A DNA stretch of 64,000 bases, from the IMG/VR virus record IMGVR_UViG_3300033388_001337; one strand, 5' to 3'. The translations under genes and the position numbers were made by a program. Numbering within the stretch: position 1 is the stretch's first letter; every line of letters begins with the position of its first letter. Positions 27,501-51,278 of this stretch are shown here, piece after piece. The notes beneath the pieces were generated by a model, which worked only from the letters and a program-made list of their open reading frames with translations, ran no database searches and was not told the DNA's origin. Origin of the DNA: an uncultured virus (IMG/VR IMGVR_UViG_3300033388_001337). Taxonomy: Duplodnaviria; Heunggongvirae; Uroviricota; Caudoviricetes; Crassvirales.

Positions 27501-30500
27501 AACTAACCACAGAAGACTTGTCTATCTTGCAAGAAATAGAACAAGAGGTGGCGGCTGAAGAAGCAGCTGCGCCTAAAAAGAAAGCGCCTAAGAAGAAAGC
27601 ACCTAAAAAGAAAGCACCTAAGAAGAAAGCACCATCTAAAAAAACTCCGAAGGCTGAACCAAAACCTAAAGCTACTAAGAAATCAACAGTAAAAGGCCAA
27701 CAAGAAGAAGAGGTTGTTGTTGAAGATGCAACGCAAACTGAATTACAGTTTGATAAAGAATTGTCTGAAACAGGAACAGCTGCGGTAGGAAACCCTACAG
27801 AAATAGCTAGCCCAGAGCAAGAGTTACAGAATGAAATTGAATCTATCGAAGAAGAAAGAGATGCAGAGATTGCAGCAATACAAGAAGAAATAAGTTCAGT
27901 AAAGATAGATTTAAAAAATGATTTAATAGGAAAAACTAAGGATCAGAAAATAGAACTTAGAGAAGAGGCAAAAGCAACTCTTGATGACCTTAAATTCGAA
28001 ATAAGTGAAATAAAAAGAGAAGCTAAAAAAGCAATAACTCAAGCTAAAAAAGACGCAAAGAAGGGTATAAGTGATAGAAGTCAAATAAACTTTAGAGAGT
28101 CTTACGACATGTCGTTAGTAAAACCTTCTGATAAAATAGATATAAACGCACTCATAAAAGACATACAAAATAAAAAACAAAAGGTTTGGTTCTGGACAGC
28201 CGATCAGCTTGGTGCGGGTATGGTAGATGGGCAGATGATGGATGCTGGCCCGAGCTATGCTTTACAGCCAGAAAACAGAGAAAAAGGTATTATATGGGCT
28301 GCCTCAAAGTCCCCTAAATTAATTAATGACAAAATAAAAGAATCAGATTATATTTTTATAATGAGCGGTTCTCCAACAAAATCTCAACTGTTTAATAAAA
28401 AAGTATATGATGCTTTTGTAAGTAAGCTGGGCGATTTCAATGTGTTTAAAAAAGAAGTGCTTGGTATGAAAAAGGTAGTTGGAGTTGTTAAGAATATATT
28501 AAACAAACATGAGGGCTGGGCTTCGTTAAGAAGAAGTCCTGAAAGAAAAGCTTTTTTAAATGCTTTAGTAAATCAATTTGATAAAAAAGGTACAGAGTTA
28601 AAATTACTTTTAGAAAAACAAAATGCTGTAATAGATTTAAATAAATTTAGAGATGGTTTCTATAAAGCAAATAACTTTGGTATGAATGACATTATGTTGG
28701 TTCTAAAGCCAACTAAAGCTGGTGGTCAGTCTCAACACTCTACTTATGGTACTGATATTTTAGGCGAGGTAGTAGGTGTTCCTGATAGAAAGGTAAACGC
28801 ATTTAATATAATGCCTGCAGAGTTAAAGGCTAAATATGAAAGACCATTAACTTTATCGGAACAATCTCAAGCTGTAGCTCCTTACGGTATCGGTGTAAGA
28901 GACGTAGAGTTAACTGAAAGACAGCAAAAAAACTTTGCAAGGTTTATTGATAACTACCAAATTAATGAAAGAGGATTTATGCCATCTACGGTATTTGATG
29001 TAGGAAGATTAAAAAGAGAAGCAAAGGAATTTGGATATGGTGTTAGAACAGCTAGATTTAGAGAAGGGTATAGAGCGGGAGAAATTTCTGGCTACTACTT
29101 AACCAAGAATGGTAAGTTTTTTAATCCTCGAGCTAGATATCAAATGATTGATTCTAACAATCCAATCGAAGTAATTGTCGATGCTAGAAAAAATAAAATA
29201 TCAGACGCAGCTATAAAAATAAAACTTAGAGCTGATGGTCTAAGCACATCTCAAATAGCCGCAGCTTTAGAAAACGCTGAACTCTTTGCAGACATAAGCA
29301 CTCAAGTTCCTTCAGCCTTTTTAATTTTAGGCGACAAGGTTGGAAGAAAAGTATATAATCGTGTTGTTGACTTTGTGAAAAAAACAAACATAGAAAACGC
29401 TAAAAAGAAATACAGAATGAGCGATGCAGAAATGGCTGCTATAGCTGATAAAAAAGAAAAGGCGTTAAGAAAAAAAGCTAAATTAAAATCTCCTGATACA
29501 ATTAAAGAAGAGGTGGCTGACTTTACAGCAAGGATGAAAAAGAAAAATCCAAAGCTTACTCAAGATGAATTGAATGAGTTGGCTGTAAAAAAAGCTAATG
29601 ATATAAATAGAGTAGAAGAGAAAAAGCTTAATACAATTAACAAGGCCATGAGAAAGTTTCGTGAAGACCAGGTTAAAAGAAACAACTCTAAACCAGCCAA
29701 ACTAACAAAAGCAGAAATTATTGATAAAGCTATAGAGGTTTTACAAACTGACCCCGCTTATATAGATGCTGCAGGTAAAGTAGAGGGTAAGTCAGATTTA
29801 CAAAGTTTAATGGTAGATCAGCTGATTGTAGCGCTATCTACTAAAGCTGCCTTAGATACAAATACTAAAGTTGAACAGGCTAAACAAAGAATAAAAAAAC
29901 AAACTAAAGGTAAGGTTAAGATAAATACTAAAAAAGATTTGTTTTATACACAAACTCAGTTAATTAATTTAATTAAAAAAACTATACCAGCTGCTCAGTT
30001 TAACAAGAAGCAAGTTAAAGACCTTATGGCTAAGGTAAGAGACTTGGTAAAGCCAGGGATAAATGTAGAACAAGTCTTTAATGAAGTTGTTGCTGAAATT
30101 AATACTATTAATAGTAAAATTTTACAACAAGAAATGACTGGCATACTAACCAAAAAGTATGAAAGTAAAAGTGGTGGTGTTACCAGAGCAAAAGAAGTAA
30201 TAGGTGATGTTGCAGCAAGAATAAAAAATATACTTAAAAACACTTTAGTAGAAGAAAATAAAAACTTAGACATAGATGAATTAGATAATCAGGTTACTAA
30301 GAAAAATGCTCAACTTCAAGACAGGATGAATGAATTAGAAGCGGAGATAAAAGGTAGTCCAGAAAATGTTGAGGAACTTGTAAACGAGATGGCTGATATA
30401 CAATTAGCAATGATGATTAACAGTACTTTAACTTTAGAAGATAGTTCTACAGCTAAAGTAGAAGAGTTAAACTCTATTTTGCAAAACTTAGATGAGTTAT

Positions 30501-34715: not shown

Positions 34716-34896
34716 CAGATAGAGATTGTATTAAGTCAGCAAGAACTTTAATTAAATTTTGCGCCTTCTTCTTTGCTGCTTCATGCTCTCTATCCATTAA
34801 GTCTTCGTAGATATCAGTTCCAAAGTCATGAATACTATTAGACACAAAATTGATGTGACTAATGGTATTAACATCATCTTTAGAAACTCTAGACAT
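34705..34896 (-). CDS. Hypothetical protein
   Basis: 63 aa, overlaps both neighbours in an operon. Confidence 0.6.
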   Translation of the reverse strand: MSRVSKDDVNTISHINFVSNSIHDFGTDIYEDLMDREHEAAKKKAQNLIKVLADLIQSLSDEI

Positions 34897-35311
34897 TTAT
34901 TTTATCTTGGATAGCTTTTATATTATTAGTTAGTTCTTGTACTTGTAAATTTAAGGATTTATTTTGTTCCACCAAATTATTCACTGTCTTTTTGAGCAGC
35001 TCAGGGTTGAACTCTATGTACTCTTGACAGTCACTTTTCCATACTTGTAAGGCTTTTGAGTAATTACGATTAAAGTTTTTATCTACCTCAACTTCGTTCT
35101 GAAAGTTTTTTAAAGCTGACATAACAGTTACGTGATTCATTCCGAATTGGGTCGCAATAAATTGATAGGTTAATCCTAACTCTTGTCGTAAGATAGCATA
35201 ACAAATAGCTCGAGCTTGTATAAATTCTGTTTTACGTGATTTATTTGATGGATCTACTCCTAAAAGGTCTTTCACTATTCCTTTTAAGGCGTTGGTCTTT
35301 GCAATATTCAT
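34889..35311 (-). CDS. DnaA domain IV-like helix-turn-helix protein
   Basis: 'KSRKTEFIQARAICYAILRQELGLTYQFIATQFGMNHVTVMSALK'. Confidence 0.75.
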   Translation of the reverse strand: MNIAKTNALKGIVKDLLGVDPSNKSRKTEFIQARAICYAILRQELGLTYQFIATQFGMNHVTVMSALKNFQNEVEVDKNFNRNYSKALQVWKSDCQEYIEFNPELLKKTVNNLVEQNKSLNLQVQELTNNIKAIQDKINV

Positions 35312-41360: not shown

Positions 41361-41762
41361 TTATTTTAATTTAATTAATTTGATTTTGTGTTTTGCATAT
41401 CTATTCAAGATACTATCTCTACGAGTTTTTAGATTCTGGATGTGCTTGTCGTTCTTACGTGTGTTAACTTCAATCTTCATTTTATTTTCAATTAAATCAA
41501 GCTTGTGTTTACAGTTGCTCATTGCAGTAATTACGCACCCACGTTTCCATCCTTCATTAAAAAATACTTCGTATTCGTTTTCGGTTAACTCCTGAAAGTA
41601 ATCCCCACCCTTTGAACAATTAAGTAGTTCAATGTGGCTTGGAAACTTTTGAAGTTTAACTCCCATATTAATTATAGATTCTCCTCTACTCATAGTAGTT
41701 TGAATAGAGCCATGATCCTGTTTAGCCTGTTCGTATATTTCTTGTAAACTATACTGTTTCAT
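41361..41762 (-). CDS. Hypothetical protein
   Basis: 133 aa ORF in operon. Confidence 0.6.
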   Translation of the reverse strand: MKQYSLQEIYEQAKQDHGSIQTTMSRGESIINMGVKLQKFPSHIELLNCSKGGDYFQELTENEYEVFFNEGWKRGCVITAMSNCKHKLDLIENKMKIEVNTRKNDKHIQNLKTRRDSILNRYAKHKIKLIKLK

Positions 41763-42045
41763 TAATAGATTCTATAATATTTTTGTAGTCCTTATCATTA
41801 TCAATAAGTTCTTTAGCTTTTTTATATCCGTGTATTATGGTTGTGATGTGAACATCAAGTCCAGCTTCAGACATAAATCTTTTAATATATGAAACCCTAA
41901 TAGGCCTTTCCATACATAGATAGTAGAGCATTTGTCTTGCATCTACCTTTTCTTGTTTTCTACTTTTATCAAACATCTCATCTAAACTTAAATGAAACTG
42001 TTTGGATATAGCTGTAGCATAGCTATTAAATATATCTTTCTTCAT
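41749..42045 (-). CDS. DnaA domain IV-like helix-turn-helix protein
   Basis: 'KSRKQEKVDARQMLYYLC...VHITTIIHGYKK'. Confidence 0.75.
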   Translation of the reverse strand: MKKDIFNSYATAISKQFHLSLDEMFDKSRKQEKVDARQMLYYLCMERPIRVSYIKRFMSEAGLDVHITTIIHGYKKAKELIDNDKDYKNIIESINETV

Positions 42046-42780: not shown

Positions 42781-43578
42781 TTATCCGAATATTATAGGTT
42801 GATTTCCTTTTCTATCTTTATGACAGTGCCATTCAAAAACTTCTTTAAGAGTTTTTCCGTAGTATTCGTGCAAACTATAACACTCATACCACCCCTCTTC
42901 ATAGGTATCATCAGCATTGGTGTGTTCATTACGTAGGTAAGACACTTCACATAGAAACTTAAAGCCCTCTTCATACTCTACTACTTTGGTTTCGTGATTG
43001 TACACTCCCTCCATTTCTTTAATGACTCCCTGCTCGTTTATAGCAAATTCTTTTGAGTCATCCCATTCAGGCTCACTATAATCTCCACTATCAACAATAT
43101 CTCCATTCTCATATTCTCTGAATCCACCCCATCCTGTTTCTTCCTCGTAAAAATAAGAAAATCCTTTTACTTGTTTTGCAAAGGCATCAAGTATATCATC
43201 ATCAAGAGGACTCCAAGCTGTAGTAAAGGTATAGGTTAATGTTTCATCATCAAGATTGTTTTCGTAACAACCCCATTTTGTACCCCAATTGTTCAAAGCC
43301 CACGTGTACCAATTGTCAGCACCGAATTTAGCTTTCCAACTGTTCGACATATCAAGAGTTATTCCCCTGTTCCATATTCTATCTGTTTTTGCTTTTTTCT
43401 CCTGATCAAGATACTCTTTCTTAGATATAATAGAAGTCGGAGATGAAGTGTTAAACAATTCCTCTGGCATTGGCAGAATAAATTCAGCCAACCCTCTTTC
43501 TAGTTTTACAATTTTTTTAAGAAGTTTGTAATCTTCTTTGTTGCTCACTGCTATTGAGCAAAATACGTGATTAGGCAT
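42781..43578 (-). CDS. DUF1281/YubB ferredoxin-like domain protein
   Basis: 'MPNHV', 'NWYTWALNNWGTKW', 'FTTAWSP', 'YEEETG'. Confidence 0.8.
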   Translation of the reverse strand: MPNHVFCSIAVSNKEDYKLLKKIVKLERGLAEFILPMPEELFNTSSPTSIISKKEYLDQEKKAKTDRIWNRGITLDMSNSWKAKFGADNWYTWALNNWGTKWGCYENNLDDETLTYTFTTAWSPLDDDILDAFAKQVKGFSYFYEEETGWGGFREYENGDIVDSGDYSEPEWDDSKEFAINEQGVIKEMEGVYNHETKVVEYEEGFKFLCEVSYLRNEHTNADDTYEEGWYECYSLHEYYGKTLKEVFEWHCHKDRKGNQPIIFG

Positions 43579-43611
43579 AATAATAAATTTAAATTAAACT
43601 TCGTTTCGTTA

Positions 43612-43659
43612 TCTACCACGAAAAGCCCGACACATTTACGTGCCGAGCTACTCGCAGAA
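43612..43659 (-). ncRNA. Conserved intergenic hairpin motif, copy A
   Basis: UUCUGC-gagu-AGCUCGGCAC-guaaau-GUGUCGGGCU-uuucg-UGGUAGA. Confidence 0.55.
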
Positions 43660-43670
43660 CAAACAACAAA

Positions 43671-43745
43671 TTATAACAACTTACTCAATACTATCAATAT
43701 GAATGTTATTACTACACCTAAAAAGGAATAGAATGTTGCTTTCAT
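43671..43745 (-). CDS. Putative 24-aa membrane peptide
   Basis: MKATFYSFLGVVITFILIVLSKLL; fills the gap between genes. Confidence 0.35.
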   Translation of the reverse strand: MKATFYSFLGVVITFILIVLSKLL

Positions 43746-43758
43746 TTTATCTTCATAT

Positions 43759-44100
43759 TTACTCATCTTCTTGCATTTTATCTGCATACTTACACGCAGA
43801 GTTATAAATATTTCTGTCGTACTCCTGTACAAAGTCAACAAAGTAATTCATCCATTCGTACAGTCCTGTATTCATAAAACTATCCATCTCTCTTACTTCT
43901 ATATCATCATCATACTTCAACCCATTGATAGAATTTACAACATATTTGTCAGGTGCGATTAAGTCGCACAACTGTTGGATTTGGGAGACATCATCTTCAG
44001 CCTCCCAACCCTTACCAAAATGTAAGTCAGCAATTTTTTCTAAATTGTTTGCTGACACAAAGCCATATGTAGACATATAACGTTCAGTTTTTATTCTCAT
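43759..44100 (-). CDS. Hypothetical early protein
   Basis: 113 aa, acidic; A-rich leader. Confidence 0.65.
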   Translation of the reverse strand: MRIKTERYMSTYGFVSANNLEKIADLHFGKGWEAEDDVSQIQQLCDLIAPDKYVVNSINGLKYDDDIEVREMDSFMNTGLYEWMNYFVDFVQEYDRNIYNSACKYADKMQEDE

Positions 44101-44111
44101 AATTTTAAATT

Positions 44112-44297
44112 TTAATAGTTATCTCTTCCTAAAAACAGGGTGATGCTTGAGTCACCTCCATCCTCCCACACTTCTATAGTGTCGAGGATAACATCTCTGT
44201 CAGGAATATTTTCTTTTGTTAGGTTTGCTACAGGCAGAATCTCTGCATCCTGAAATTCACAATCCTGTAGCATTTTTACTAGTTCTTTTACTTTCAT
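44112..44297 (-). CDS. Hypothetical early protein
   Basis: 61 aa; 'MKVKELVKMLQ...DAEI' is a common small phage protein start. Confidence 0.65.
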   Translation of the reverse strand: MKVKELVKMLQDCEFQDAEILPVANLTKENIPDRDVILDTIEVWEDGGDSSITLFLGRDNY

Positions 44298-44303
44298 ATA
44301 ATG

Positions 44304-44975
44304 TTATTTAAGTTCGTGTTCTATTTCTGCAGACACTAGAATTACTTCGCATAATTCTGATGGTATCTTGCTTCTCTCGTGATTACCTTTCAGTCCCTGT
44401 GTCCCTGTTTGGCTTCCTCGTGGTGCTGGAGTATGACACGTGTCTCCGTTCTTACACATTGCACGTGGAGTCCAGCCCATATCGTTAGTCCAAATATCTG
44501 TAGGCTTCATTCTTGAGTCGCCATATTGACAATAGGTAACTGTTTCTCTTCTATGTTCTAGTTCAGTCCAATGAGGTGCTTTTCTCATTTTACCTCGTGG
44601 ATTTTCTACGTACCATAAAAGGTTGGGATTCTTATCAAGATAATTAGAAATGATTTCTAATGTTTTCTCGAAGATTTTTAGCCCGATCATGTCAGGATCA
44701 CGTGGTGTAAAATTCTCTCCTGAAACCCACTTTCTGCCTATACAGGCTACTGAAAAGTCAGTACAGGGTGGAGATGCCCAAAGGACATCAGGAATCCACA
44801 ACTCATCTAATGTTCCTACATTGATTTCATTCATACGATAGTCCCAATCCATAATATCGCCCACCCAATTTGTGTTAGGGTACGCTACATTATCAACAGA
44901 GAATACCTCGTGGCCACGCTGTTCTGCAACTTTGCCTATACTACTTGAGCCACTAAATAGTTCAAGTATTTTCAT
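44304..44975 (-). CDS. C5-cytosine DNA methyltransferase (short phage type)
   Basis: Motif I LELFSG, catalytic WASPPC, motif VI YVENP, 'YCQYG...KPTDIWTN'. Confidence 0.85.
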   Translation of the reverse strand: MKILELFSGSSSIGKVAEQRGHEVFSVDNVAYPNTNWVGDIMDWDYRMNEINVGTLDELWIPDVLWASPPCTDFSVACIGRKWVSGENFTPRDPDMIGLKIFEKTLEIISNYLDKNPNLLWYVENPRGKMRKAPHWTELEHRRETVTYCQYGDSRMKPTDIWTNDMGWTPRAMCKNGDTCHTPAPRGSQTGTQGLKGNHERSKIPSELCEVILVSAEIEHELK

Positions 44976-44988
44976 AATTGTTTGTTTT

Positions 44989-45075
44989 GATTAAGACACA
45001 AGAGTAATAATCTACCAACGTGGTTTGTCATTTGCACCTCTCGTGTTTCGGATATTTAATCCTCATCAGTTAATC
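44989..45075 (-). ncRNA. Hammerhead ribozyme HH-1 (type I)
   Basis: GAUUAA CUGAUGA GGAU-uaaau-AUCC GAAA CACGAGAG-(33 nt)-CUCUUGUG UC^UUAAUC; cut between 44995 and 44994. Confidence 0.93.
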
Positions 45076-45078
45076 TGT

Positions 45079-45315
45079 TTAAAAAATCTCATCAAGATAT
45101 TTATATGACTCAGTTATTTTTTCTAACGCATATATGTATTTAAATATATGGTCACTTTTATTGAGTTCATCTTCATACTCTTGCGAAAACACTTCTTCTT
45201 CGACACTATGTCTTTCATTATAATCAGTGAATTCAGGCTCATAAATGTATTCCAAAACTTTGTTACATAAATGAATCATTTGTTCCTCTTGAAAAGGAGT
45301 CAATTTGTTTTTCAT
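45079..45315 (-). CDS. Hypothetical early protein
   Basis: 78 aa, acidic; stop is 3 nt before HH-1. Confidence 0.7.
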   Translation of the reverse strand: MKNKLTPFQEEQMIHLCNKVLEYIYEPEFTDYNERHSVEEEVFSQEYEDELNKSDHIFKYIYALEKITESYKYLDEIF

Positions 45316-45335
45316 AATTGTTATTTGTTATAGGT

Positions 45336-45385
45336 TTCTACCACCAAAACCCCAACACGTTTTACTGTGTTGAGGTAAGGCAGAA
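45336..45385 (-). ncRNA. Conserved intergenic hairpin motif, copy B
   Basis: UUCUGC-cuu-ACCUCAACAC-aguaaaac-GUGUUGGGGU-uuugg-UGGUAGAA. Confidence 0.55.
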
Positions 45386-45399
45386 TCACACACTACAAA

Positions 45400-45645
45400 T
45401 CAGGATGCGTTCAATGGCGATTCTATATTGTATTCGCCATCCATAATAATCGCATCAATAATCTCTTCTTCATAATTGTACAGGACATCAGTGACATCAT
45501 CTCCATTAAGAATCATTTTGTCTATTGTAATCTCCTCAATGGGTGGGGAATCATAACTTCCTGATTCAACGTAGTATTCGTAATGTACTTCTACTACATT
45601 ATTTTCGGACAGTTCCCAATCGAATTGTAAGTTATAACTTTTCAT
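45400..45645 (-). CDS. Hypothetical early protein
   Basis: 81 aa, very acidic, 'ESGSYDSPP'. Confidence 0.7.
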   Translation of the reverse strand: MKSYNLQFDWELSENNVVEVHYEYYVESGSYDSPPIEEITIDKMILNGDDVTDVLYNYEEEIIDAIIMDGEYNIESPLNAS

Positions 45646-45647
45646 AA

Positions 45648-45902
45648 TTATAATGTTGGTATTGTTCCGTAACCTTTAATTGTAGTGAACAACGCACCAC
45701 CATCATTACCCTCATCATCCATAGATGGATATAGCCAAAATGTCTCTCCGTGTTTGTTTTCCATTAACATACATAAAGGAGATTTGTACCACATCATTTC
45801 ATCTACTTCATCTTCTGACATATATTGTACTTTAACAATCTTACATCCGACAAGATGTTTCTTCGCTAAATCAGTCCAACGTGTTTCTGTGTTTGTTTTC
45901 AT
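45648..45902 (-). CDS. Hypothetical early protein
   Basis: 84 aa; 'LVGCKIVKVQYM...PSMDDEGNDGGALF'. Confidence 0.75.
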   Translation of the reverse strand: MKTNTETRWTDLAKKHLVGCKIVKVQYMSEDEVDEMMWYKSPLCMLMENKHGETFWLYPSMDDEGNDGGALFTTIKGYGTIPTL

Positions 45903-45925
45903 ATTTGATAGTATTTATATGGTTT

Positions 45926-45981
45926 GTAAATGACACCTACATAGGTAGGTGTTTCGGATATTTAATCCTCATCAGATTTAC
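45926..45981 (-). ncRNA. Hammerhead ribozyme HH-2 (type I)
   Basis: GUAAAU CUGAUGA GGAU-uaaau-AUCC GAAA CACCUAC-cuau-GUAGGUG UC^AUUUAC; cut between 45932 and 45931. Confidence 0.95.
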
Positions 45982-46117
45982 TTGCGTACTCCATTGCATT
46001 GCAATATACCCTGTAATAATTAGTACGAACATAGGATATGAAATCAGTGTAAAATTCCTCTTCGGACTCACGTGTATAACCCATATCTTTTTGTTTTATC
46101 AGTGGTTTGTTTTTCAT
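45962..46117 (-). CDS. Small hypothetical protein (51 aa, not in track) ending inside HH-2
   Basis: MKNKPLIKQKDMGYTRESEEEFYTDFISYVRTNYYRVYCNAMEYASKSDED; ATGA-coupled to the upstream gene. Confidence 0.65.
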   Translation of the reverse strand: MKNKPLIKQKDMGYTRESEEEFYTDFISYVRTNYYRVYCNAMEYASKSDED

Positions 46118-46518
46118 TTCTTAAAGGTTTTAATAAATTCATCTACTGTATCATCAAATTTAATTTGATAATCGTAATCTCGCATTTGAATACGAATTTT
46201 GTTATCACTATTTACATAGACAAAATATGTATATTCTTCCCAAACATCTTTACAGTTTGGTGTATGAACATAAATATTACCACGTGGATTCTGTTGTTTG
46301 AACTCGCATAAAGCTAAAGCTGTCAATTCTTCGATTCCGTTTGCGTATTGTGATTCAGTATTGTGGCTTACTCCGTTTGTCAACGTGTATTGTTGCAGAA
46401 TCTCTGCAAGTTCTACTCCGTGTGATTCAGGATAGCCATCATACTGTCTATACATAGTTAATAATGTAGCAGAACCTCTGCCACCATTTTCGAAATGTGT
46501 TAAACTTCTTGTTCCCAT
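46114..46518 (-). CDS. Hypothetical early protein
   Basis: 134 aa; 'MGTRSLT...YRQYDGYPESHG...WEEYTY'. Confidence 0.8.
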   Translation of the reverse strand: MGTRSLTHFENGGRGSATLLTMYRQYDGYPESHGVELAEILQQYTLTNGVSHNTESQYANGIEELTALALCEFKQQNPRGNIYVHTPNCKDVWEEYTYFVYVNSDNKIRIQMRDYDYQIKFDDTVDEFIKTFKK

Positions 46519-46534
46519 ATTTGATAGTTTTTAT

Positions 46535-46592
46535 GATTAGGACACCACTTCATGAAGTGGTGTTTCGGATACTGAATCCTCATCAGCTAATC
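46535..46592 (-). ncRNA. Hammerhead ribozyme HH-3 (type I)
   Basis: GAUUAG CUGAUGA GGAU-ucagu-AUCC GAAA CACCACUU-caug-AAGUGGUG UC^CUAAUC; cut between 46541 and 46540. Confidence 0.95.
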
Positions 46593-46708
46593 TCAACATA
46601 GAATATCCACATCCCCACATAAAATATGAAGAATAAGAATAATAAAAACACTACGTTAATTATATATTCTACAGGATTTTCTTTGATGTCTTTTAATAGT
46701 TGTTTCAT
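46583..46708 (-). CDS. Small membrane protein (41 aa, not in track) whose UGA stop is in the HH-3 core
   Basis: MKQLLKDIKENPVEYIINVVFLLFLFFIFYVGMWIFYVEIS; single transmembrane segment. Confidence 0.6.
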   Translation of the reverse strand: MKQLLKDIKENPVEYIINVVFLLFLFFIFYVGMWIFYVEIS

Positions 46709-46723
46709 AATGTGATTTTTAAA

Positions 46724-47077
46724 TTAATACCTCTTCCTAATAGTTTCTCTTTGGTCTTCAGTCAATACATTGTTCCAAACATACCCATAAGTTTTATCTA
46801 ACTTTTGGTATTTTGATGCGTGTATGTCTAAATCTTTTTCCAATGTTTTTACCCTTTGTTCTAACTCTTCTTTGTCAAAAATGATATTAGCAATATACTC
46901 ATCATTTTCAGCTAATTTTCTGTTTAGATTTTCAGTCAGAGCAGTCCATTGTAAGATTCCAAAAAGCATTTCTATTTTGGAAGTTTTAAGTGCCTCATTT
47001 ACCTCCTCTTCATTATGTTGAGGAAAATGTTTTAATAAGAGGCCTCTGTCGATTTTGCAACTAGTTTTGATTTTCAT
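46724..47077 (-). CDS. Hypothetical coiled-coil early protein
   Basis: 117 aa. Confidence 0.7.
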   Translation of the reverse strand: MKIKTSCKIDRGLLLKHFPQHNEEEVNEALKTSKIEMLFGILQWTALTENLNRKLAENDEYIANIIFDKEELEQRVKTLEKDLDIHASKYQKLDKTYGYVWNNVLTEDQRETIRKRY

Positions 47078-47081
47078 AATA

Positions 47082-47375
47082 TTAAATTTTATTAATTAAG
47101 TTAAGTGCTTTTTTAATTGTCTTTACAGTAAATTTTGCATTCTGGAAGTGAAAGTAATCCTCGCCAATATTAGCAAGAAACTCTAGATTCCATTTAACAA
47201 CCTCTAAAGCATTTTTTGAATCTGTTCTAGTGTAACCCTTACTGCATTTAGGAACAGCCATATCTTTCATTGTGTTATGCATATTCTCTAAAATAGCAGA
47301 TGGTTTTGCAGTGTGTCCGATTGTATTCTTTGATACTAAATCTTGACACATCTTAAAATACTCATTGTAATTCAT
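47082..47375 (-). CDS. Hypothetical early protein
   Basis: 97 aa; preceded by HH-4 and the AACUAUCAAA leader. Confidence 0.7.
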   Translation of the reverse strand: MNYNEYFKMCQDLVSKNTIGHTAKPSAILENMHNTMKDMAVPKCSKGYTRTDSKNALEVVKWNLEFLANIGEDYFHFQNAKFTVKTIKKALNLINKI

Positions 47376-47390
47376 AATTTTGATAGTTTT

Positions 47391-47451
47391 GATTAAGACA
47401 CCTCTAGATCATTTTGAGGTGTTTCGAATATTAAATTCTCATCAGTTAATC
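47391..47451 (-). ncRNA. Hammerhead ribozyme HH-4 (type I)
   Basis: GAUUAA CUGAUGA GAAU-uuaau-AUUC GAAA CACCUC-aaaaugaucua-GAGGUG UC^UUAAUC; cut between 47397 and 47396. Confidence 0.95.
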
Positions 47452-47835
47452 TTCATATTCTATGTTCCACGTATCGCATAAATCTCTTTTAAGATATTCA
47501 TCATCATCCCATCTGTCTGAAATCATTTCTAAAATGTCTTCATCAATGTAGATGCGATTATCTTCTTCAAAGTTATATGCGTAACTGTTTTGCATAAAAG
47601 CATCAATGACAGCTTCAACTAAATTGTCATCATAGTAATACACATCATCAAGTATATTGATTTGTCCTCCTCTTACATTGTCTGTAAAAACAAAGACATC
47701 ATAAGAGTCAGCAGTTTCCTGTGAGTGAATCATATAATCTAGCCCACTGAAATCATCTGTAGTAATTTCTAATGGAAGATACTCATCAACAAATTGTTTG
47801 AATGAGGTGTACTCTGATAAATTTAACTTTTTCAT
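47446..47835 (-). CDS. Hypothetical acidic early protein
   Basis: 129 aa, very Asp/Glu/Tyr-rich; last codon and stop (GAU UAA) form HH-4 stem I. Confidence 0.75.
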   Translation of the reverse strand: MKKLNLSEYTSFKQFVDEYLPLEITTDDFSGLDYMIHSQETADSYDVFVFTDNVRGGQINILDDVYYYDDNLVEAVIDAFMQNSYAYNFEEDNRIYIDEDILEMISDRWDDDEYLKRDLCDTWNIEYED

Positions 47836-47857
47836 AATTTGATAGTTTATTGTGATT

Positions 47858-47914
47858 ATTATAAGACACCTAACTAGTAGGTGTTTCGGATTTTAAATCC
47901 TCATCAGTTATAAT
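47858..47914 (-). ncRNA. Hammerhead ribozyme HH-5 (type I)
   Basis: AUUAUAA CUGAUGA GGAU-uuaaa-AUCC GAAA CACCUA-cuagu-UAGGUG UC^UUAUAAU; cut between 47865 and 47864. Confidence 0.95.
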
Positions 47915-47916
47915 GG

Positions 47917-48117
47917 TTAAGCATTGTTAATCGTACCCTCATAAGAGGTTAGATTATTAGATTCCATCTCTAGTATTGTTAGCTTTGCAACCCTGATACA
48001 CATTGAATATTCTGCTGGAGATATTGCTGTGTTATTGTCAAACATTTTATTAGCTACATTCATAGCTATTTTCATATCGTTTTCAGGCTCAATACTAATA
48101 GTTTTTACTGTACTCAT
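47917..48117 (-). CDS. Hypothetical early protein
   Basis: 66 aa, flanked by HH-6 and HH-5. Confidence 0.7.
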   Translation of the reverse strand: MSTVKTISIEPENDMKIAMNVANKMFDNNTAISPAEYSMCIRVAKLTILEMESNNLTSYEGTINNA

Positions 48118-48136
48118 AATTGATAGTTTTTATTGT

Positions 48137-48243
48137 GATTAATGACTATCACTTCTCGCACACATCCACCACTCTTTCAGGTGTTCGCAACGTATTTCGT
48201 GATAGTTTCGTAGGTGTTTAAACCTTTACTCATCAGATTAATC
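48137..48243 (-). ncRNA. Hammerhead ribozyme HH-6 (type I, extended stem II and large loop III)
   Basis: GAUUAAU CUGAUGA GUA-aa-GGU-uuaaac-ACC-UAC GAAA CUAUCAC-(46 nt)-GUGAUAG UC^AUUAAUC; cut between 48144 and 48143. Confidence 0.9.
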
Positions 48244-48311
48244 TTGATTAGATGAACACAACCTCGAACTCATTCGAGATGTCTTCAAGAGCAATTTCAT
48301 AGCTTTCCATA

Positions 48312-48608
48312 TTAGTAAATGTATTTGTGATTAATAATGTATTTATTTAGTTTTTCTTTATTAGCAGAATCTAGCATCATATAGAACTCATAGAAACAAG
48401 CAGTTCCAAATCTAAATGGCAGTTCTCCGTGATATTGTTTTTTGTATTTGGATACCAAGCCTTCAAACTTCCCTATCAAATGATATAAAAGTGTTGGCTC
48501 ATCTCCCCATACATTTTCAAGAAAAGATGCCTCATAATTGTTAGCATAAACATTAAATTTTACAATGCAGTTACTAGCATTTGCAGTAGCTTCATAATTA
48601 GTTTTCAT
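48312..48608 (-). CDS. Hypothetical early protein (first gene of the leftward operon)
   Basis: 98 aa, directly downstream of the leftward promoters. Confidence 0.7.
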   Translation of the reverse strand: MKTNYEATANASNCIVKFNVYANNYEASFLENVWGDEPTLLYHLIGKFEGLVSKYKKQYHGELPFRFGTACFYEFYMMLDSANKEKLNKYIINHKYIY

Positions 48609-48621
48609 AATAATAAATTTG

Positions 48622-48639
48622 TGTGATTAATGACTATCA
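48622..48639 (-). repeat. 18-nt exact copy of the HH-6 substrate strand
   Basis: tgtgattaatgactatca at 48622-48639 is identical to 48134-48151. Confidence 0.9.
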
Positions 48640-48762
48640 AAACAAGTATTACTAGCACTGCATTCATCTTGAGATTATAGTGGTATGCGAGGTAGCCCAC
48701 TTGTAGTTCATAACGCTACGTAATTTTTATGCAGTAATACTCGGTATGTCAAAGAACAGGTG

Positions 48763-48770
48763 CAAATATA
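48763..48770 (-). promoter_or_regulatory. Leftward early promoter, -7 element TATATTTG
   Basis: TAnnTTTG on the - strand upstream of the ribozyme-punctuated operon. Confidence 0.65.
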
Positions 48771-48944
48771 GTATATGTATAGCATAATTCTATAATAACT
48801 TACTGACAATTTGTCTACTTTCTTCTGCATATTTGTCACACATTTAACGTTTTCTTTATCAACAAGTTACGCAACACTATTGCAATATATATTGTTTAGC
48901 AATATTAGGTATCGTACAGGCACTATCCCTTTGCTATTGATGTG

Positions 48945-48952
48945 CAAAGGTA
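48945..48952 (-). promoter_or_regulatory. Second leftward promoter, -7 element TACCTTTG
   Basis: TAnnTTTG on the - strand in the divergent non-coding region. Confidence 0.5.
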
Positions 48953-49186
48953 CTTTATAAATTAAAGTTCGTTAAACGTAAGCTATGAGAGTGTACGAGG
49001 GACAGGTATTTTGGGGTATGGCTAAAATAAAAAACCCAAAAAAATGCAGAAAAAAATTTCAGAATCTAGATTCGAGCTGAAAAAAATATGACTTTCGATT
49101 GTAGGGGGTGCAACGTGAGACGACATATAACCCTCAACCTCTAAATATCTAATATTTTTTTATTACCTTTACAAAAAAGAAAAACT

Positions 49187-49366
49187 ATGGATGGACTAAT
49201 TATAAAAAACGGAAGACTAATCAATGAGAGACGACCAGGCGAATCAGGTATCGCTATGGCAGCACGATTAAAGCGTGCAGTAAAAAACGATCGTAAAATA
49301 AATCAGATAGCAGAAGCTATTGAACTTGCAGAAAATAAAAAGAACTTTAGACAACTAGAATTTTAA
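49187..49366 (+). CDS. Small hypothetical protein (59 aa, not in track)
   Basis: MDGLIIKNGRLINERRPGESGIAMAARLKRAVKNDRK...; followed by a terminator. Confidence 0.65.
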   Translation: MDGLIIKNGRLINERRPGESGIAMAARLKRAVKNDRKINQIAEAIELAENKKNFRQLEF

Positions 49367-49398
49367 GTTTCCCATTTGTGTGTTTTGATTAGTAGTGA

Positions 49399-49432
49399 GA
49401 AGAGTATCTATTCAGGTACTCTTTTCTTTTTT
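49399..49432 (+). terminator. Intrinsic terminator
   Basis: AAGAGTA...TACTCTT stem followed by TTCTTTTTT. Confidence 0.65.
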
Positions 49433-49616
49433 AACATACTATGTTGATTTTATGTTAATTTTAATTTTACTTAAGTTATTGAAAATAATATATTTAAATA
49501 CTATTTATGTTAATATGTTAAAAATTATATATAAAAAAATAATTTAAAAAAAATATATAGCAAGCTCTTTTACTAAGACTGATAAAATATTTATAAAAAA
49601 TCAACATATCAACATA
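49431..49616. repeat. AT-rich region with seven TATGTTRA boxes (candidate replication origin)
   Basis: Direct copies at 49440, 49451, 49506, 49514; inverted copies at 49431, 49601, 49609. Confidence 0.7.
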
Positions 49617-49636
49617 TTAGAATTCAATAAAAGTTT

Positions 49637-49644
49637 TATATTTG
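49637..49644 (+). promoter_or_regulatory. Bacteroidota-type -7 promoter element (TATATTTG)
   Basis: TAnnTTTG upstream of groEL. Confidence 0.65.
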
Positions 49645-49667
49645 TATAAAATCAAATACATTTAAAT

Positions 49668-51278
49668 ATGCAAACAGACTCGGGATACATTCCTAAAAAC
49701 CTAGACTTCGGTCAAGACGGTAGACAAAAACTTATAAACGGAATCACTGCAATCTCTAAAGCAGTTAAGAGTACACTAGGCCCACGAGGCAGAACAGTAC
49801 TAATAGAATCACCACAACATACTAACGGAATAACGGTAACTAAAGACGGGGTTACAGTCGCAAGGTCAGTTGCTTTACTTGATCCAGTTGAAAACTTAGC
49901 AATACAAATGATGCAGGAAGCTGCGAGTCGTACTGCTACTTCGGCTGGTGATGGTACAACTACCGCTATTGTTTTAACTGAAGCTTTAGTAAAAGCTGGT
50001 CAAGAACACATAACACCTGAAAATAATATAACTGAAGTTTTAAAACATATTAATAGAATATGTAACGAAACTATTCTTAAGTTGAAAATGAAAACCAAGA
50101 AAGTAACTAAATCTAAATTAGATGCAGTTGCTTCAATCTCTGCAAACAATGATAAAGAGTTAGGAAAGATTATAGCTGATGCATATAAGAAAGTAGGTGC
50201 AGACGGAATAGTAACTGTAGAAAAATCTATGACAGCCGAAACATATGCTGAGGTTACTAACGGTATTAAAGTAGATAGAGGTTATACTTCACCACTCTTT
50301 ATTAATAATCAAAAGAAAGATGAGTGTATATTAGAAGGAGTTAGGATTTTAGTTTGTGATCAGGAGATTACTAATGTATTGCAAATCGAGAATATATTAA
50401 AACCAATAATTAATAAAGGCGATAAACTTTTAATTATAGCTGAGTGTAATTCAAATGTTGTAAACACACTTGCTGCCAATGTAGTTCGTAATGGTTTAAA
50501 GTTCTGTAATATCATGCCTCCATCATTTGGATATAAAACCCACGAGCTGATGCAGGATATTGCTTTATCAGTTGGTGCAAAATACTTTTCTGAAAAGACA
50601 GGTGATGATTTATCACTGATGCAGTTTTCAGATTTAGGTTATGCAGATAAAATTATTGTAGGAAAAGAAAGTACTGTCTTAATTAAAAACCAAGATATGA
50701 CTGAAGAGATTAAAGAAAGAATCAGTCAACTTAAAGTACAACAAGAAAACACTACACATTTAGGAGATAGAAAGTTTATCAATGAACGTATTGCTAGTTT
50801 AGCAGGTTCTATTGGTTGTATTTATGTAGGAGGTAACAGTGATGTAGAGCAAAAAGAAAAATTTGACCGAGTCGATGACTCGGTGTGCGCTGTGCGCAGT
50901 GCCTTACAAGAAGGCATATTACCAGGCGGAGGAATAGCTTTACGTAAATTAACTCCCCTTGTATATGCAACAGGAGATAAAGATAAGGCTACAGCTGAAC
51001 TTATAATGGCTACAGCTCTTAGCGCACCATTTAATCATATACTTACTAATGCAGGAATCAATATAGAATCTATAGCTGATAAACTTGTAAGCTCAGACTT
51101 TGCTTTTGGTTATGATGTAAAGAATGAAAAGTTTGGTGATATGTTCCAGTTAGGAGTTATTGATCCATTAAAGGTTACTAAGAATGCTTTGATTAATGCA
51201 GTATCTGTAGCAACAACTATATTAAGTACTAACGCTATTATTACACATAAAAGATTAAATGAAGAAAAGGAAGCTTAA
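49668..51278 (+). CDS. groEL: Chaperonin GroEL (phage-encoded)
   Basis: 'AVKSTLGPRGR', 'VTKDGVTVA', 'AGDGTTTA', 'GILPGGG', 'GVIDPLKVTKNAL'. Confidence 0.97.
   Translation: MQTDSGYIPKNLDFGQDGRQKLINGITAISKAVKSTLGPRGRTVLIESPQHTNGITVTKDGVTVARSVALLDPVENLAIQMMQEAASRTATSAGDGTTTAIVLTEALVKAGQEHITPENNITEVLKHINRICNETILKLKMKTKKVTKSKLDAVASISANNDKELGKIIADAYKKVGADGIVTVEKSMTAETYAEVTNGIKVDRGYTSPLFINNQKKDECILEGVRILVCDQEITNVLQIENILKPIINKGDKLLIIAECNSNVVNTLAANVVRNGLKFCNIMPPSFGYKTHELMQDIALSVGAKYFSEKTGDDLSLMQFSDLGYADKIIVGKESTVLIKNQDMTEEIKERISQLKVQQENTTHLGDRKFINERIASLAGSIGCIYVGGNSDVEQKEKFDRVDDSVCAVRSALQEGILPGGGIALRKLTPLVYATGDKDKATAELIMATALSAPFNHILTNAGINIESIADKLVSSDFAFGYDVKNEKFGDMFQLGVIDPLKVTKNALINAVSVATTILSTNAIITHKRLNEEKEA

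What the first reader, a model, noticed from the sequence alone, without database searches (positions are those of the whole stretch)
44989..48243. Array of six hammerhead ribozymes punctuating the phage early operon
Seen: on the - strand (the sense strand of these genes), six intergenic elements each have the full hammerhead core CUGAUGA...GAAA...GUC, with stems I, II and III all paired. They lie at 44989-45075, 45926-45981, 46535-46592, 47391-47451, 47858-47914 and 48137-48243. Stem sequences differ but pairing is kept: stem I is GAUUAA/UUAAUC, GUAAAU/AUUUAC, GAUUAG/CUAAUC or AUUAUAA/UUAUAAU, and stem II is GGAU/AUCC or GAAU/AUUC. That covariation indicates selection on structure. Established: type I hammerheads cut after GUC, leaving a 2',3'-cyclic phosphate and a 5'-OH, and single hammerheads in bacterial or prophage intergenic regions are known. 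Inference: the early polycistronic RNA self-processes into units of 279, 468, 856, 609 and 937 nt carrying 1-3 small genes each. Every cut falls 19-29 nt upstream of the next AUG (19, 29, 22, 21, 29, 26). This would be a protein-free analogue of RNase III processing of T7 early mRNA. The 5'-OH ends could also resist 5'-monophosphate-stimulated decay. I cannot say from sequence whether such an array has been described in this phage group.
Basis: partly seen in the sequence, partly recalled or inferred. Interest (0 to 1): 0.95.

Follow-up and report, generated by a model that had tools for sequence, protein, structure and literature searches.

The report
Six-hammerhead ribozyme array in phage
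Six small self-cutting RNA motifs (hammerhead ribozymes) really do sit between the small early genes of this marine phage, each just before the next gene's start, but this layout has been known in phages since 2011, so it is a clean new example, not a new kind of system.

Summary
Six type I hammerheads lie on the - strand at the stated coordinates, with a complete catalytic core and stems I-III paired. My descriptor scan finds exactly these six in the 64-kb window; 200 dinucleotide shuffles gave 3 hits in total.

Relatives in IMG/VR phage contigs carry 1-9 copies. In 29 distinct sequences, 100% of 479 pair cells are paired and 14 of 17 pairs show compensatory changes.

No element reaches an Rfam gathering score.

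The most likely role is self-processing of a polycistronic early transcript into 1-3-gene units. This is inferred; no RNA data exist.

The idea is not new. Perreault et al. 2011 (PMC3088659) described clustered hammerheads flanking genes in prophages and showed cleavage. This scan already holds 65 notes of such arrays on other DNA, in at least 59 genomes.

Local extras are a hammerhead-linked ACUAUCAA leader motif, gene indels between relatives that begin and end at hammerhead modules, and variable inserts in stem III.

Verdict: real, ordinary, a new member of a known kind.

The parts
48137..48243 (-). HH1. Type I hammerhead. Stem I is GAUUAAU/AUUAAUC. Stem II is 20 nt and atypical, with an AA bulge. 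Stem III is 8 bp with a long insert. C17 is at 48144. The leader to ATG 48117 is 26 nt.
   Evidence: Descriptor scan and fold. Model R1 missed it. The same type with a shorter stem III is found in G006 and G002. Support comes from conservation only; this type has no covariation of its own.
47858..47914 (-). HH2. Type I hammerhead. Stem I is AUUAUAA/UUAUAAU. Stem II is GGAUU/AAUCC. C17 is at 47865. The leader is 29 nt.
   Evidence: 74.7 bits. RAGATH-1 gives 25.8 bits, below its gathering score of 56.3.
47391..47451 (-). HH3. Stem I is GAUUAA/UUAAUC and contains the upstream stop codon UAA. Stem II is GAAU/AUUC. C17 is at 47397. The leader is 21 nt.
   Evidence: (78.9 bits).
46535..46592 (-). 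HH4. Stem I is GAUUAG/CUAAUC. The upstream ORF stops at the first UGA of the CUGAUGA core. C17 is at 46541. The leader is 22 nt.
   Evidence: (82.8 bits).
45926..45981 (-). HH5. Stem I is GUAAAU/AUUUAC. The upstream 51-aa ORF runs into loop II. C17 is at 45932. The leader is 29 nt.
   Evidence: (77.7 bits). Contigs from other runs carry a 49-nt insert in its stem III loop.
44989..45075 (-). HH6. Stem I is GAUUAA/UUAAUC. Stem III is 9 bp with a 33-nt insert. C17 is at 44995. The leader is 19 nt and runs to the DNA methyltransferase gene.
   Evidence: 40.8 bits local; 57.6 bits; phrog_757.
45902..48143 (-). Five leaders, one following each of HH1-HH5. Each carries the motif ACUAUCAA 8-10 nt before the ATG. 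On the - strand the motif starts at 48127, 47846, 47387, 46528 and 45912.
   Evidence: Five of the six - strand occurrences of ACTATCAA in the 64-kb window lie here.
45079..48117 (-). Eleven small genes in five ribozyme-bounded units: 66 aa | 129 aa | 97+117+41 aa | 134+51 aa | 84+81+78 aa. All are of unknown function.
   Evidence: ORFs. There are no Pfam or PHROG hits at E<=0.001 and only sub-cutoff hits at E<=1. Homologues in G002 and G006 share 41-100% identity.
44304..44975 (-). DNA methyltransferase gene, the first gene after HH6. Replication genes follow.
   Evidence: phrog_757 at E 1.7e-30. Downstream are an exonuclease, a primase/helicase and a helicase.

Best explanation
The six elements are active type I hammerhead ribozymes embedded in the sense strand of the phage's promoter-proximal - strand operon. 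The phage is about 64 kb, tailed and marine, and probably infects Flavobacteriia.

As the long transcript is made, each ribozyme folds and cuts after its GUC. This splits the RNA into units of one to three genes.

Each upstream product ends in the stable stem II and stem III hairpins with a 2',3'-cyclic phosphate. Each downstream product starts with a 5'-OH and a short A-rich leader of 19-29 nt that carries a conserved ACUAUCAA motif before the ATG. The weak AU-rich stem I of 6-7 bp lets the products part.

The result is that each gene cassette is expressed and decays independently of its neighbours.

Shown here: the sequence and structure features, covariation, placement, and recurrence in relatives. 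Inferred: cleavage, co-transcription, and the effects on stability or translation.
For: Core and stems in the window:
- The complete core and three stems are present in 6 of 6 elements. The hit count is far above chance, 6 against 3 in 200 shuffles.

Covariation in relatives:
- Among 32 matches (29 distinct) from the window and 10 loci, 100% of 479 cells are paired. Fourteen of 17 pairs have changes on both sides. No shuffle of 500 reaches the observed covariation score. Controls with partners slid by 1-3 columns pair only 26-43%.
- RNAalifold predicts the same 17 pairs on its own.
- Variation in relatives falls where the hammerhead consensus allows it. N7 is U or C. H17 is C or A. G10.1-C11.1 and A15.1-U16.1 are invariant.

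Recurrence:
- Arrays recur in related phage contigs. G002 (64.7 kb, rated complete) has 9 by my descriptor and 8 by model R1. G006 has 5, G003 has 4, G005 has 3, and G004, G009 and G010 have 2 each.

Placement across 35 distinct instances:
- The cut lies 13-32 nt before an ATG that opens an ORF of at least 30 codons in 31 of the 33 that have such an ORF within 90 nt.
- The upstream ORF's stop lies within -9 to +19 of the ribozyme's first base in 29 of 33.

Context:
- All flanking genes are on the same strand and are conserved as proteins.

Precedent:
- Three tandem prophage hammerhead arrangements cleaved in vitro and one in vivo (PMC3088659, passages).
Against: - No RNA evidence exists. No listed sequencing run on record as RNA holds the region, so neither co-transcription nor cleavage is shown.
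- No element reaches an Rfam gathering score.
- I found no stem I/loop II tertiary contact of the recognised kinds. Minimal hammerheads without one are slow at physiological Mg2+ (recalled).
- Stem I is missing from the minimum-energy fold of 2 of 6.
- HH1 has a bulged stem II and no covariation support of its own.
- A terminator-like hairpin at 45375-45350 followed by four U lies inside unit 5, and internal promoters cannot be excluded. The sigma-70 scan is uninformative (35 sites against 40.2 expected), and Bacteroidota-type promoters are not covered by the tool.
- The 35 instances include close homologues, so they are not 35 independent observations.
Confidence: 0.72

Rival explanations
1. 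The main role is translation activation, not message separation. Cleavage creates a 5' end 19-29 nt from the AUG and frees the first 6-7 leader bases from stem I. The host ribosome, which in Bacteroidota does not rely on Shine-Dalgarno pairing (recalled), can then load on each cistron.
For: The cut-to-ATG distance is tightly kept, 13-32 nt in 31 of 33. The first base after stem I is A in 35 of 35, followed by an A-rich tail. The leader motif ACUAUCAA is specific to these junctions. In eukaryotic RNA viruses, 5'-UTR type I hammerhead cleavage was reported as essential for translation initiation (PMC13725137, abstract only).
Against: Genes inside a unit (for example 117, 41, 81 and 78 aa) are presumably expressed without a ribozyme in front. 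In a compact genome, any element in a gap of about 90 nt must lie near the next start. The eukaryotic precedent concerns cap-independent initiation, which is a different problem.
Confidence: 0.12
2. The repeated hammerhead-plus-leader modules matter mainly at the DNA level. They would serve as homology blocks that let related phages gain, lose and swap early-gene cassettes. RNA cleavage would be a secondary insulating feature.
For: - G006 and a contig of run X5 lack exactly the 66-aa gene plus HH2. The junction lies in the AAUCACAAUAAA...CUAUCAA leader shared by HH1 and HH2.
- G002 has an extra unit of one hammerhead plus a 104-aa gene at the HH4 position. Window HH4 aligns to both flanking G002 hammerheads.
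- G002 has two further extra hammerhead-plus-gene units.
- In all, 4 of 5 whole-gene indels touch a hammerhead, and 3 are flanked by one on both sides.
- Contigs in run X1 share only the 31-32-nt ribozyme core and diverge on both sides.
Against: Any repeated sequence produces such recombination, so function does not follow. One of the 5 indels, the extra gene after the methyltransferase in G006, has no hammerhead. DNA-level homology would not select for compensatory stem changes or an invariant catalytic core.
Confidence: 0.08
3. The motifs are inactive or very slow relics. In that case the hairpins act as RNase III or other nuclease sites, 3' stabilisers or protein-binding sites, without self-cleavage.
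For: No tertiary contact was identified. Stem I is weak. All scores are below Rfam gathering values. The leader of the 98-aa gene keeps only the 3' part of an HH1-type element, which shows that such elements do decay.
Against: The catalytic core is invariant in 35 of 35 instances, while the stems change by compensation. That pattern is expected only if the catalytic fold is under selection.
Confidence: 0.05
4. Excised fragments are circularised, either by the ribozyme's reverse reaction or by a host ligase, giving circular mRNAs.
For: Cleavage leaves the ligatable 5'-OH and 2',3'-cyclic-phosphate ends. The HH3 3' strand could pair with the HH4 5' strand, with one G-U (sequence). Two adjacent G002 hammerheads share the same stem I.
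Against: In the window, 4 of 5 adjacent pairs have incompatible stem I strands. Perreault 2011 looked for spliced or circular products and found none.
Confidence: 0.03

Closest known systems
Clustered hammerhead ribozymes flanking genes in prophages (Perreault et al. 2011, PLoS Comput Biol, PMC3088659; Clostridium scindens, Azorhizobium caulinodans, Agrobacterium tumefaciens)
   Same: Several same-orientation hammerheads flank single genes or short gene blocks of variable identity in phage DNA. Processing of long phage transcripts is the proposed role. An anti-restriction-type gene sits next to the array: ardA there, a DNA methyltransferase here.
   Different: - Here there are six (up to nine in relative G002), in an apparently lytic marine phage and not a prophage. 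The pattern has 0 matches in 185,579 species genomes.
- All are type I, with stem I of 6-7 bp, stem II of 4-5 bp, and no recognised pseudoknot.
- They carry a linked leader motif.
- Cleavage has not been tested here.
Rfam RF03152 RAGATH-1 hammerhead and RF00163 Hammerhead_1 (type I)
   Same: The core, the type I topology and the stem III hairpin match. RAGATH-1 is the best Rfam match for HH2 and HH3. Relatives in G003 score 25.2 bits on RF00163.
   Different: Scores are 25-26 bits against a gathering score of 56.3, and 25.2 against 34. The upstream hairpin of RAGATH-1 is absent, and stem II here is a normal 4-bp helix where that model has a single pair (alignment). Routine Rfam annotation would miss all six.
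RNase III processing of the T7 early polycistronic mRNA
   Same: A long early phage transcript is cut between cistrons at structured intercistronic sites, which leaves hairpins at the 3' ends.
   Different: That system uses a host protein enzyme and leaves 5'-phosphate and 3'-OH ends. Here the RNA would cut itself and leave 5'-OH and 2',3'-cyclic phosphate. The two are analogous, not homologous.
RiboJ-type engineered ribozyme insulators (recalled from synthetic biology)
   Same: A hammerhead placed just upstream of a coding sequence removes the variable upstream RNA and standardises the 5' leader.
   Different: RiboJ is an engineered part derived from a satellite RNA hammerhead plus an added hairpin. 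Here the module is natural, repeated in series, and followed by its own conserved leader.
Type I hammerheads in 5'-UTRs of fungal and plant RNA viruses (Lopez-Galiano et al. 2026, PMC13725137; abstract read)
   Same: A type I hammerhead lies shortly upstream of a viral ORF, and self-cleavage is linked to expression of the downstream gene.
   Different: Those are eukaryotic RNA viruses using cap-independent translation, with single motifs or pairs. This is a DNA phage with a bacterial host and a serial array.

Membership tests
Hammerhead ribozyme class (core and stem criteria as listed in Perreault 2011, PMC3088659, Methods passage) | Core C3 U4 G5 A6 N7 G8 A9 | tested here: met
   CUGAUGA in 6 of 6 window elements. 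CUGAUGA or CUGACGA in 35 of 35 distinct instances, including relatives.
Hammerhead ribozyme class | G12 A13 A14, the A15.1-U16.1 pair, and H17 (not G) at the cleavage site | tested here: met
   GAAA...U-C in 6 of 6. In relatives H17 is C or A. The A15.1-U16.1 column pair is AU in 28 of 28 cells that hold letters.
Hammerhead ribozyme class | Three helices around the core, with standard pairs next to the core (1.1-2.1, 10.1-11.1) and no multiple mispairs | tested here: met
   100% of 479 cells are paired. Fourteen of 17 pairs covary. G10.1-C11.1 is present in 29 of 29. RNAalifold gives the same structure. HH1 has one 2-nt bulge in stem II.
Hammerhead ribozyme class | Tertiary contact between stem I and stem II elements, which gives fast cleavage at physiological Mg2+ | tested here: inconclusive
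   By inspection of the sequences, no internal bulge, loop I or obvious pseudoknot is present. Stem lengths are fixed, with a 13-nt stem II in 32 of 35. Reading the list printed, loop II keeps U at its first position in 32 of 32 and A at its third in 31 of 32. The first base after stem I is A in 35 of 35. Together these hint at an unrecognised contact.
Hammerhead ribozyme class | Site-specific self-cleavage giving 2',3'-cyclic phosphate and 5'-OH | not testable with these tools
   This needs transcription and cleavage assays or end-specific RNA sequencing.
Rfam hammerhead families (RF00163, RF00008, RF02276, RF02275, RF02277, RF03152) | Score at or above the family's gathering threshold | tested here: not met
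   There are 0 matches at gathering score in the window. The best are RF03152 at 25.8 and 25.1 bits against 56.3. Relatives reach at most 25.2 of 34 on RF00163 and 35.9 of 56.3 on RF03152.
Clustered phage/prophage hammerhead arrangement (Perreault 2011) | Several hammerheads in the same orientation as the genes, flanking single genes or short gene blocks in phage DNA | tested here: met
   Six elements over 3.3 kb bound units of 1, 1, 3, 2 and 3 genes on the same strand. The phage context is shown by terminase, portal and virion proteins.

The most novel reading that the evidence does not exclude
The roughly 85-nt unit of hammerhead plus ACUAUCAA leader may be a portable cassette junction with two roles.

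At the RNA level it would act as a natural insulator. It ends translation of whatever lies upstream, caps that message with hairpins, cuts, and hands the next gene a standard short A-rich 5'-OH leader. Early genes would then be expressed independently of context.

At the DNA level, the same repeated unit would supply the homology by which related marine Flavobacteriia-type phages exchange early-gene cassettes. This would be functionally comparable to an integron's cassette boundary, but built around a ribozyme.

A so far unrecognised tertiary contact may make these minimal-looking type I hammerheads fast in vivo. The candidates are the invariant U of loop II and the invariant A that follows stem I.
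Probability: 0.2. Interest if true: 0.6.

Novelty: new member of a known kind. Interest (0 to 1): 0.3.

Why it matters
The biological role of bacterial and phage hammerheads is still described as unresolved in the 2019 review (PMC6765202, passages read). This phage group offers a compact natural test bed for that question.

It has six to nine consensus-core ribozymes in one operon and a fixed distance to the next start codon. It has a junction-specific leader motif. Close relatives differ by whole gene-plus-ribozyme units.

It also shows that a well-formed hammerhead subfamily escapes every Rfam gathering threshold, so routine annotation undercounts such arrays.

It does not change what is known about how phages use ribozymes.

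Tried and rejected
- **Rfam:** at gathering thresholds there were no matches. At E<=10 only two sub-threshold RAGATH-1 hits were relevant.
- **Pattern with long gaps:** I replaced it with my own script.
- **GenBank phage collection:** blastn of the 3.5-kb region found no match. blastn of HH5 plus its leader gave 3 marginal hits (E 0.07-0.8) covering only the leader part.
- **Prokaryote genomes:** the pattern scan of 185,579 species genomes found 0 matches.
- **Own assembly:** it is not held. The nearest record, G001, is a 28-kb fragment with no match.
- **Closest relative by primase:** MW202828.1 (65.7% identity) has no R1 match.
- **Cultured phages:** Maribacter phage Panino has none. Flavobacterium phage elemoE_10-3D has one weak hammerhead-like element of 29.5 bits with a poor stem II. 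I do not count it as a member.
- **Sequencing runs:** no RNA holder is listed. Laying DNA contigs therefore says nothing about RNA ends.
- **Promoter and terminator scan:** sigma-70 sites are not above chance (35 against 40.2±5.8; terminators 3 against 2.3±2.0). The TAnnTTTG motifs at 48952 and 48770 on the - strand are candidate Bacteroidota-type -7 boxes, known to me from recall only, and are not established.
- **Function of the eleven cassette genes:** no Pfam or PHROG family at E<=0.001. At E<=1 only sub-cutoff hits appear. The ESM Atlas gives only unnamed viral clusters for the 134-aa protein.
- **Pseudoknot:** I looked by eye for pairing between loop II and the flanks and found none.
- **Three-frame stop idea:** I considered that each hammerhead supplies stop codons in all three frames. 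HH2 lacks one frame, so I dropped it.

Full report
**Observation**

Reading the - strand of 44800-48500 shows six elements. Each has the order stem I 5' strand, CUGAUGA, stem II hairpin, GAAA, stem III hairpin, GUC, stem I 3' strand. This is the type I topology, with stem I open.

An independent descriptor scan of the whole window on both strands returns exactly these six and nothing else. The same scan over 200 dinucleotide-preserving shuffles gives 3 hits in total.

The C17 positions are 48144, 47865, 47397, 46541, 45932 and 44995.

Three corrections apply:
- HH1 differs from the rest, with a bulged 20-nt stem II and a 62-nt stem III.
- HH3, HH4 and HH5 overlap the end of the upstream ORF.
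- Stem I is thermodynamically marginal. It appears in the minimum-energy fold of 4 of 6 elements, whereas stems II and III appear in 6 of 6.

**Database status**

Rfam 15 gives no match at gathering thresholds anywhere in the window.

With permissive settings on 43000-50000, the only relevant hits are RAGATH-1 hammerhead (RF03152) at 25.8 and 25.1 bits for HH2 and HH3, against a gathering score of 56.3. The alignment shows that the core, stem III and stem I match. The upstream hairpin of that family is absent.

Relatives likewise stay below threshold, at 25.2 of 34 bits on Hammerhead_1.

**A model of my own**

A covariance model built from the four short elements (A2, R1) finds five of the six in the window. 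HH4, HH3, HH5 and HH2 score 75-83 bits, and HH6 scores 40.8. It misses HH1.

The next hit, at 20 bits, is only the antisense reading of a palindromic stem III. Everything else is at or below 13.2 bits.

**Relatives and covariation**

An exact IUPAC pattern scan of IMG/VR found 19 stretches on 11 viral contigs.

R1 then found 32 matches at E<=1e-4 in the window plus 10 loci. In the 29 distinct sequences:
- 100% of 479 pair cells are standard pairs.
- 14 of 17 pairs show changes on both sides.
- None of 500 shuffles reaches the observed covariation score.
- Sliding the partners by 1-3 columns drops pairing to 26-43%.

This alignment was fitted to the model, which favours the structure. However, RNAalifold predicts the same 17 pairs independently.

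Variation in the core sits only where the hammerhead consensus tolerates it. N7 is U or C. H17 is C or A. This is the signature of selection on the catalytic fold, not of a DNA repeat.

**Array sizes elsewhere**

- G002 (64.7 kb, rated complete): 9 by my descriptor and 8 by R1, spanning the permuted contig ends.
- G006: 5.
- G003: 4, plus a sub-threshold type III hit.
- G005: 3.
- G004, G009 and G010: 2 each.
- G007 and G008: 1 each by R1. (Without filters, R1 gave L001, which lies in G007, a second weak match, and my descriptor finds 2 there.)
- G001, the nearest fragment: none.

The pattern has no match in 185,579 prokaryote species genomes. The region has no match in GenBank phages.

**Context**

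The window is a tailed-phage genome. It encodes a large terminase, a portal, virion proteins and a GroEL-like chaperonin.

Genes run on the + strand to 33468, on the - strand from 48839 down to 33624, and on the + strand again from 49668. The array occupies the promoter-proximal 3.3 kb of the - strand block.

The eleven genes it separates have no Pfam or PHROG family. The gene after HH6 is a DNA methyltransferase. An exonuclease, a primase/helicase and a helicase follow.

The primase is closest to an uncultured podovirus from a spring, and then to Flavobacterium, Maribacter and Polaribacter phages. DNA runs that hold the region are marine, estuarine and sediment metagenomes from 10 studies.

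"Early operon" and the Flavobacteriia host are inferences.

**Placement rules across the family**

Across 35 distinct instances, not all independent:
- The cut lies 13-32 nt before an ATG that opens at least 30 codons in 31 of the 33 with such an ORF nearby.
- The upstream stop lies within -9 to +19 of the ribozyme's first base in 29 of 33.
- The first base after stem I is A in 35 of 35.
- Stem II is 13 nt in 32 of 35.

In the window, 5 of the 6 - strand copies of ACTATCAA lie in the leaders after HH1-HH5. The ribozyme and this leader therefore form one module.

**Cassette variation**

G006, and a contig of run X5, lack exactly the 66-aa gene plus HH2. The junction lies in the leader shared by HH1 and HH2.

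G002 has an extra hammerhead plus a 104-aa gene where the window has only HH4. HH4 aligns to both flanking G002 ribozymes. G002 also has further extra units after the 66-aa gene and after the methyltransferase.

G006 has one extra gene without a ribozyme.

In total, 4 of 5 whole-gene indels touch a hammerhead. This is what recombination between repeats would produce, and it does not by itself show a function.

Stem III loops also take variable inserts of 33-60 nt.

**Mechanism**

I consider self-processing of a polycistronic transcript the most likely role (0.72). The catalytic core is under selection, the elements are in sense orientation at gene junctions, and the same arrangement has been shown to cleave in vitro and in vivo in prophages (PMC3088659, passages).

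Not shown here: cleavage, a single precursor, and any effect on stability or translation.

The rivals are a translation-activating role, a mainly DNA-level cassette role, inactive relics, and circular RNA. They are set out separately with their tests.

**Comparison and novelty**

Perreault et al. [quoted passage not shown] They say this implies processing of long phage transcripts.

The 2019 review repeats the proposal and calls the function unresolved (PMC6765202).

This scan's notebook holds 65 notes of phage hammerhead arrays in at least 59 other genomes. The follow-ups shown that rate novelty file them as known. None lies on this genome or on look-alike sequence.

This locus is therefore a new member of a known kind. 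Its modest distinctions are an all-type-I, minimal-stem subfamily invisible to Rfam thresholds, the linked leader motif, and clear gene-plus-ribozyme indels between close relatives.

Noticed in passing
window 48621-48638 (- strand): The leader of the 98-aa gene (ATG at 48608) carries GATAGTCATTAATCACAC. This is the 3' end of an HH1-type hammerhead plus its leader, with a GTC 23 nt before the ATG. No CUGAUGA core, stem II or GAAA lies upstream. It looks like a decayed seventh ribozyme.
   Followed up: partly
window 45350-45375 (- strand), then TTTT at 45346-45349: A 9-bp GC-containing hairpin followed by four U lies in the 85-nt gap between the 81-aa and 78-aa genes. This is the only long gap in the array without a hammerhead. 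It may be an attenuator or a 3' stabiliser. The terminator scan did not flag it.
   Followed up: no
L022 667-722 (-) and L001 3223-3278 (-): Related contigs G003 and G007 also carry a type III hammerhead candidate (RF00008, 43.2 bits against a gathering score of 48.5) near their type I copies. Arrays in this group can therefore mix hammerhead types.
   Followed up: no
L029 1501-1558 (-), equal to MT497078.1 27095-27152: Cultured Flavobacterium phage vB_FspP_elemoE_10-3D has one hammerhead-like element: CUGACGA, GAAAC, GUC and a 6-bp stem I. Its stem II is poor and resembles RAGATH-1. It lies 24 nt before an ATG, in a run of small - strand genes. The record annotates a + strand CDS (phanotate41) over it.
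   Followed up: partly
L006 3863-3959, L016 250-346; window 45938-45947 in runs X4 and X5: Nearly the same insert of about 45-49 nt, containing GTGATAGCAACGAAACT, sits in the stem III loop of hammerheads with different stem I sequences (HH5-like and HH2-like). This suggests a mobile or exchangeable stem III extension.
   Followed up: no
window 49668-51278 (+): The phage encodes a GroEL-like chaperonin (Cpn60_TCP1 at E 3.6e-61; phrog_5725). It is transcribed divergently from the hammerhead operon.
   Followed up: no
window 24545-33220 (+): A 2891-aa ORF lies in the structural block. Only residues 137-760 match a PHROG of unknown function (phrog_32588). The rest is unassigned.
   Followed up: no
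window 41749-42045 and 34889-35311 (-): Two small proteins (98 and 140 aa) each carry a DnaA C-terminal helix-turn-helix domain (PF08299, just above the cutoff). They lie within the replication block.
   Followed up: no
window 48952 and 48770 (- strand): TACCTTTG and TATATTTG fit the TAnnTTTG -7 box that I recall for Bacteroidota promoters. They lie upstream of the first small ORF (48830-48708) and of the 98-aa gene, and are candidate starts of the precursor transcript.
   Followed up: no
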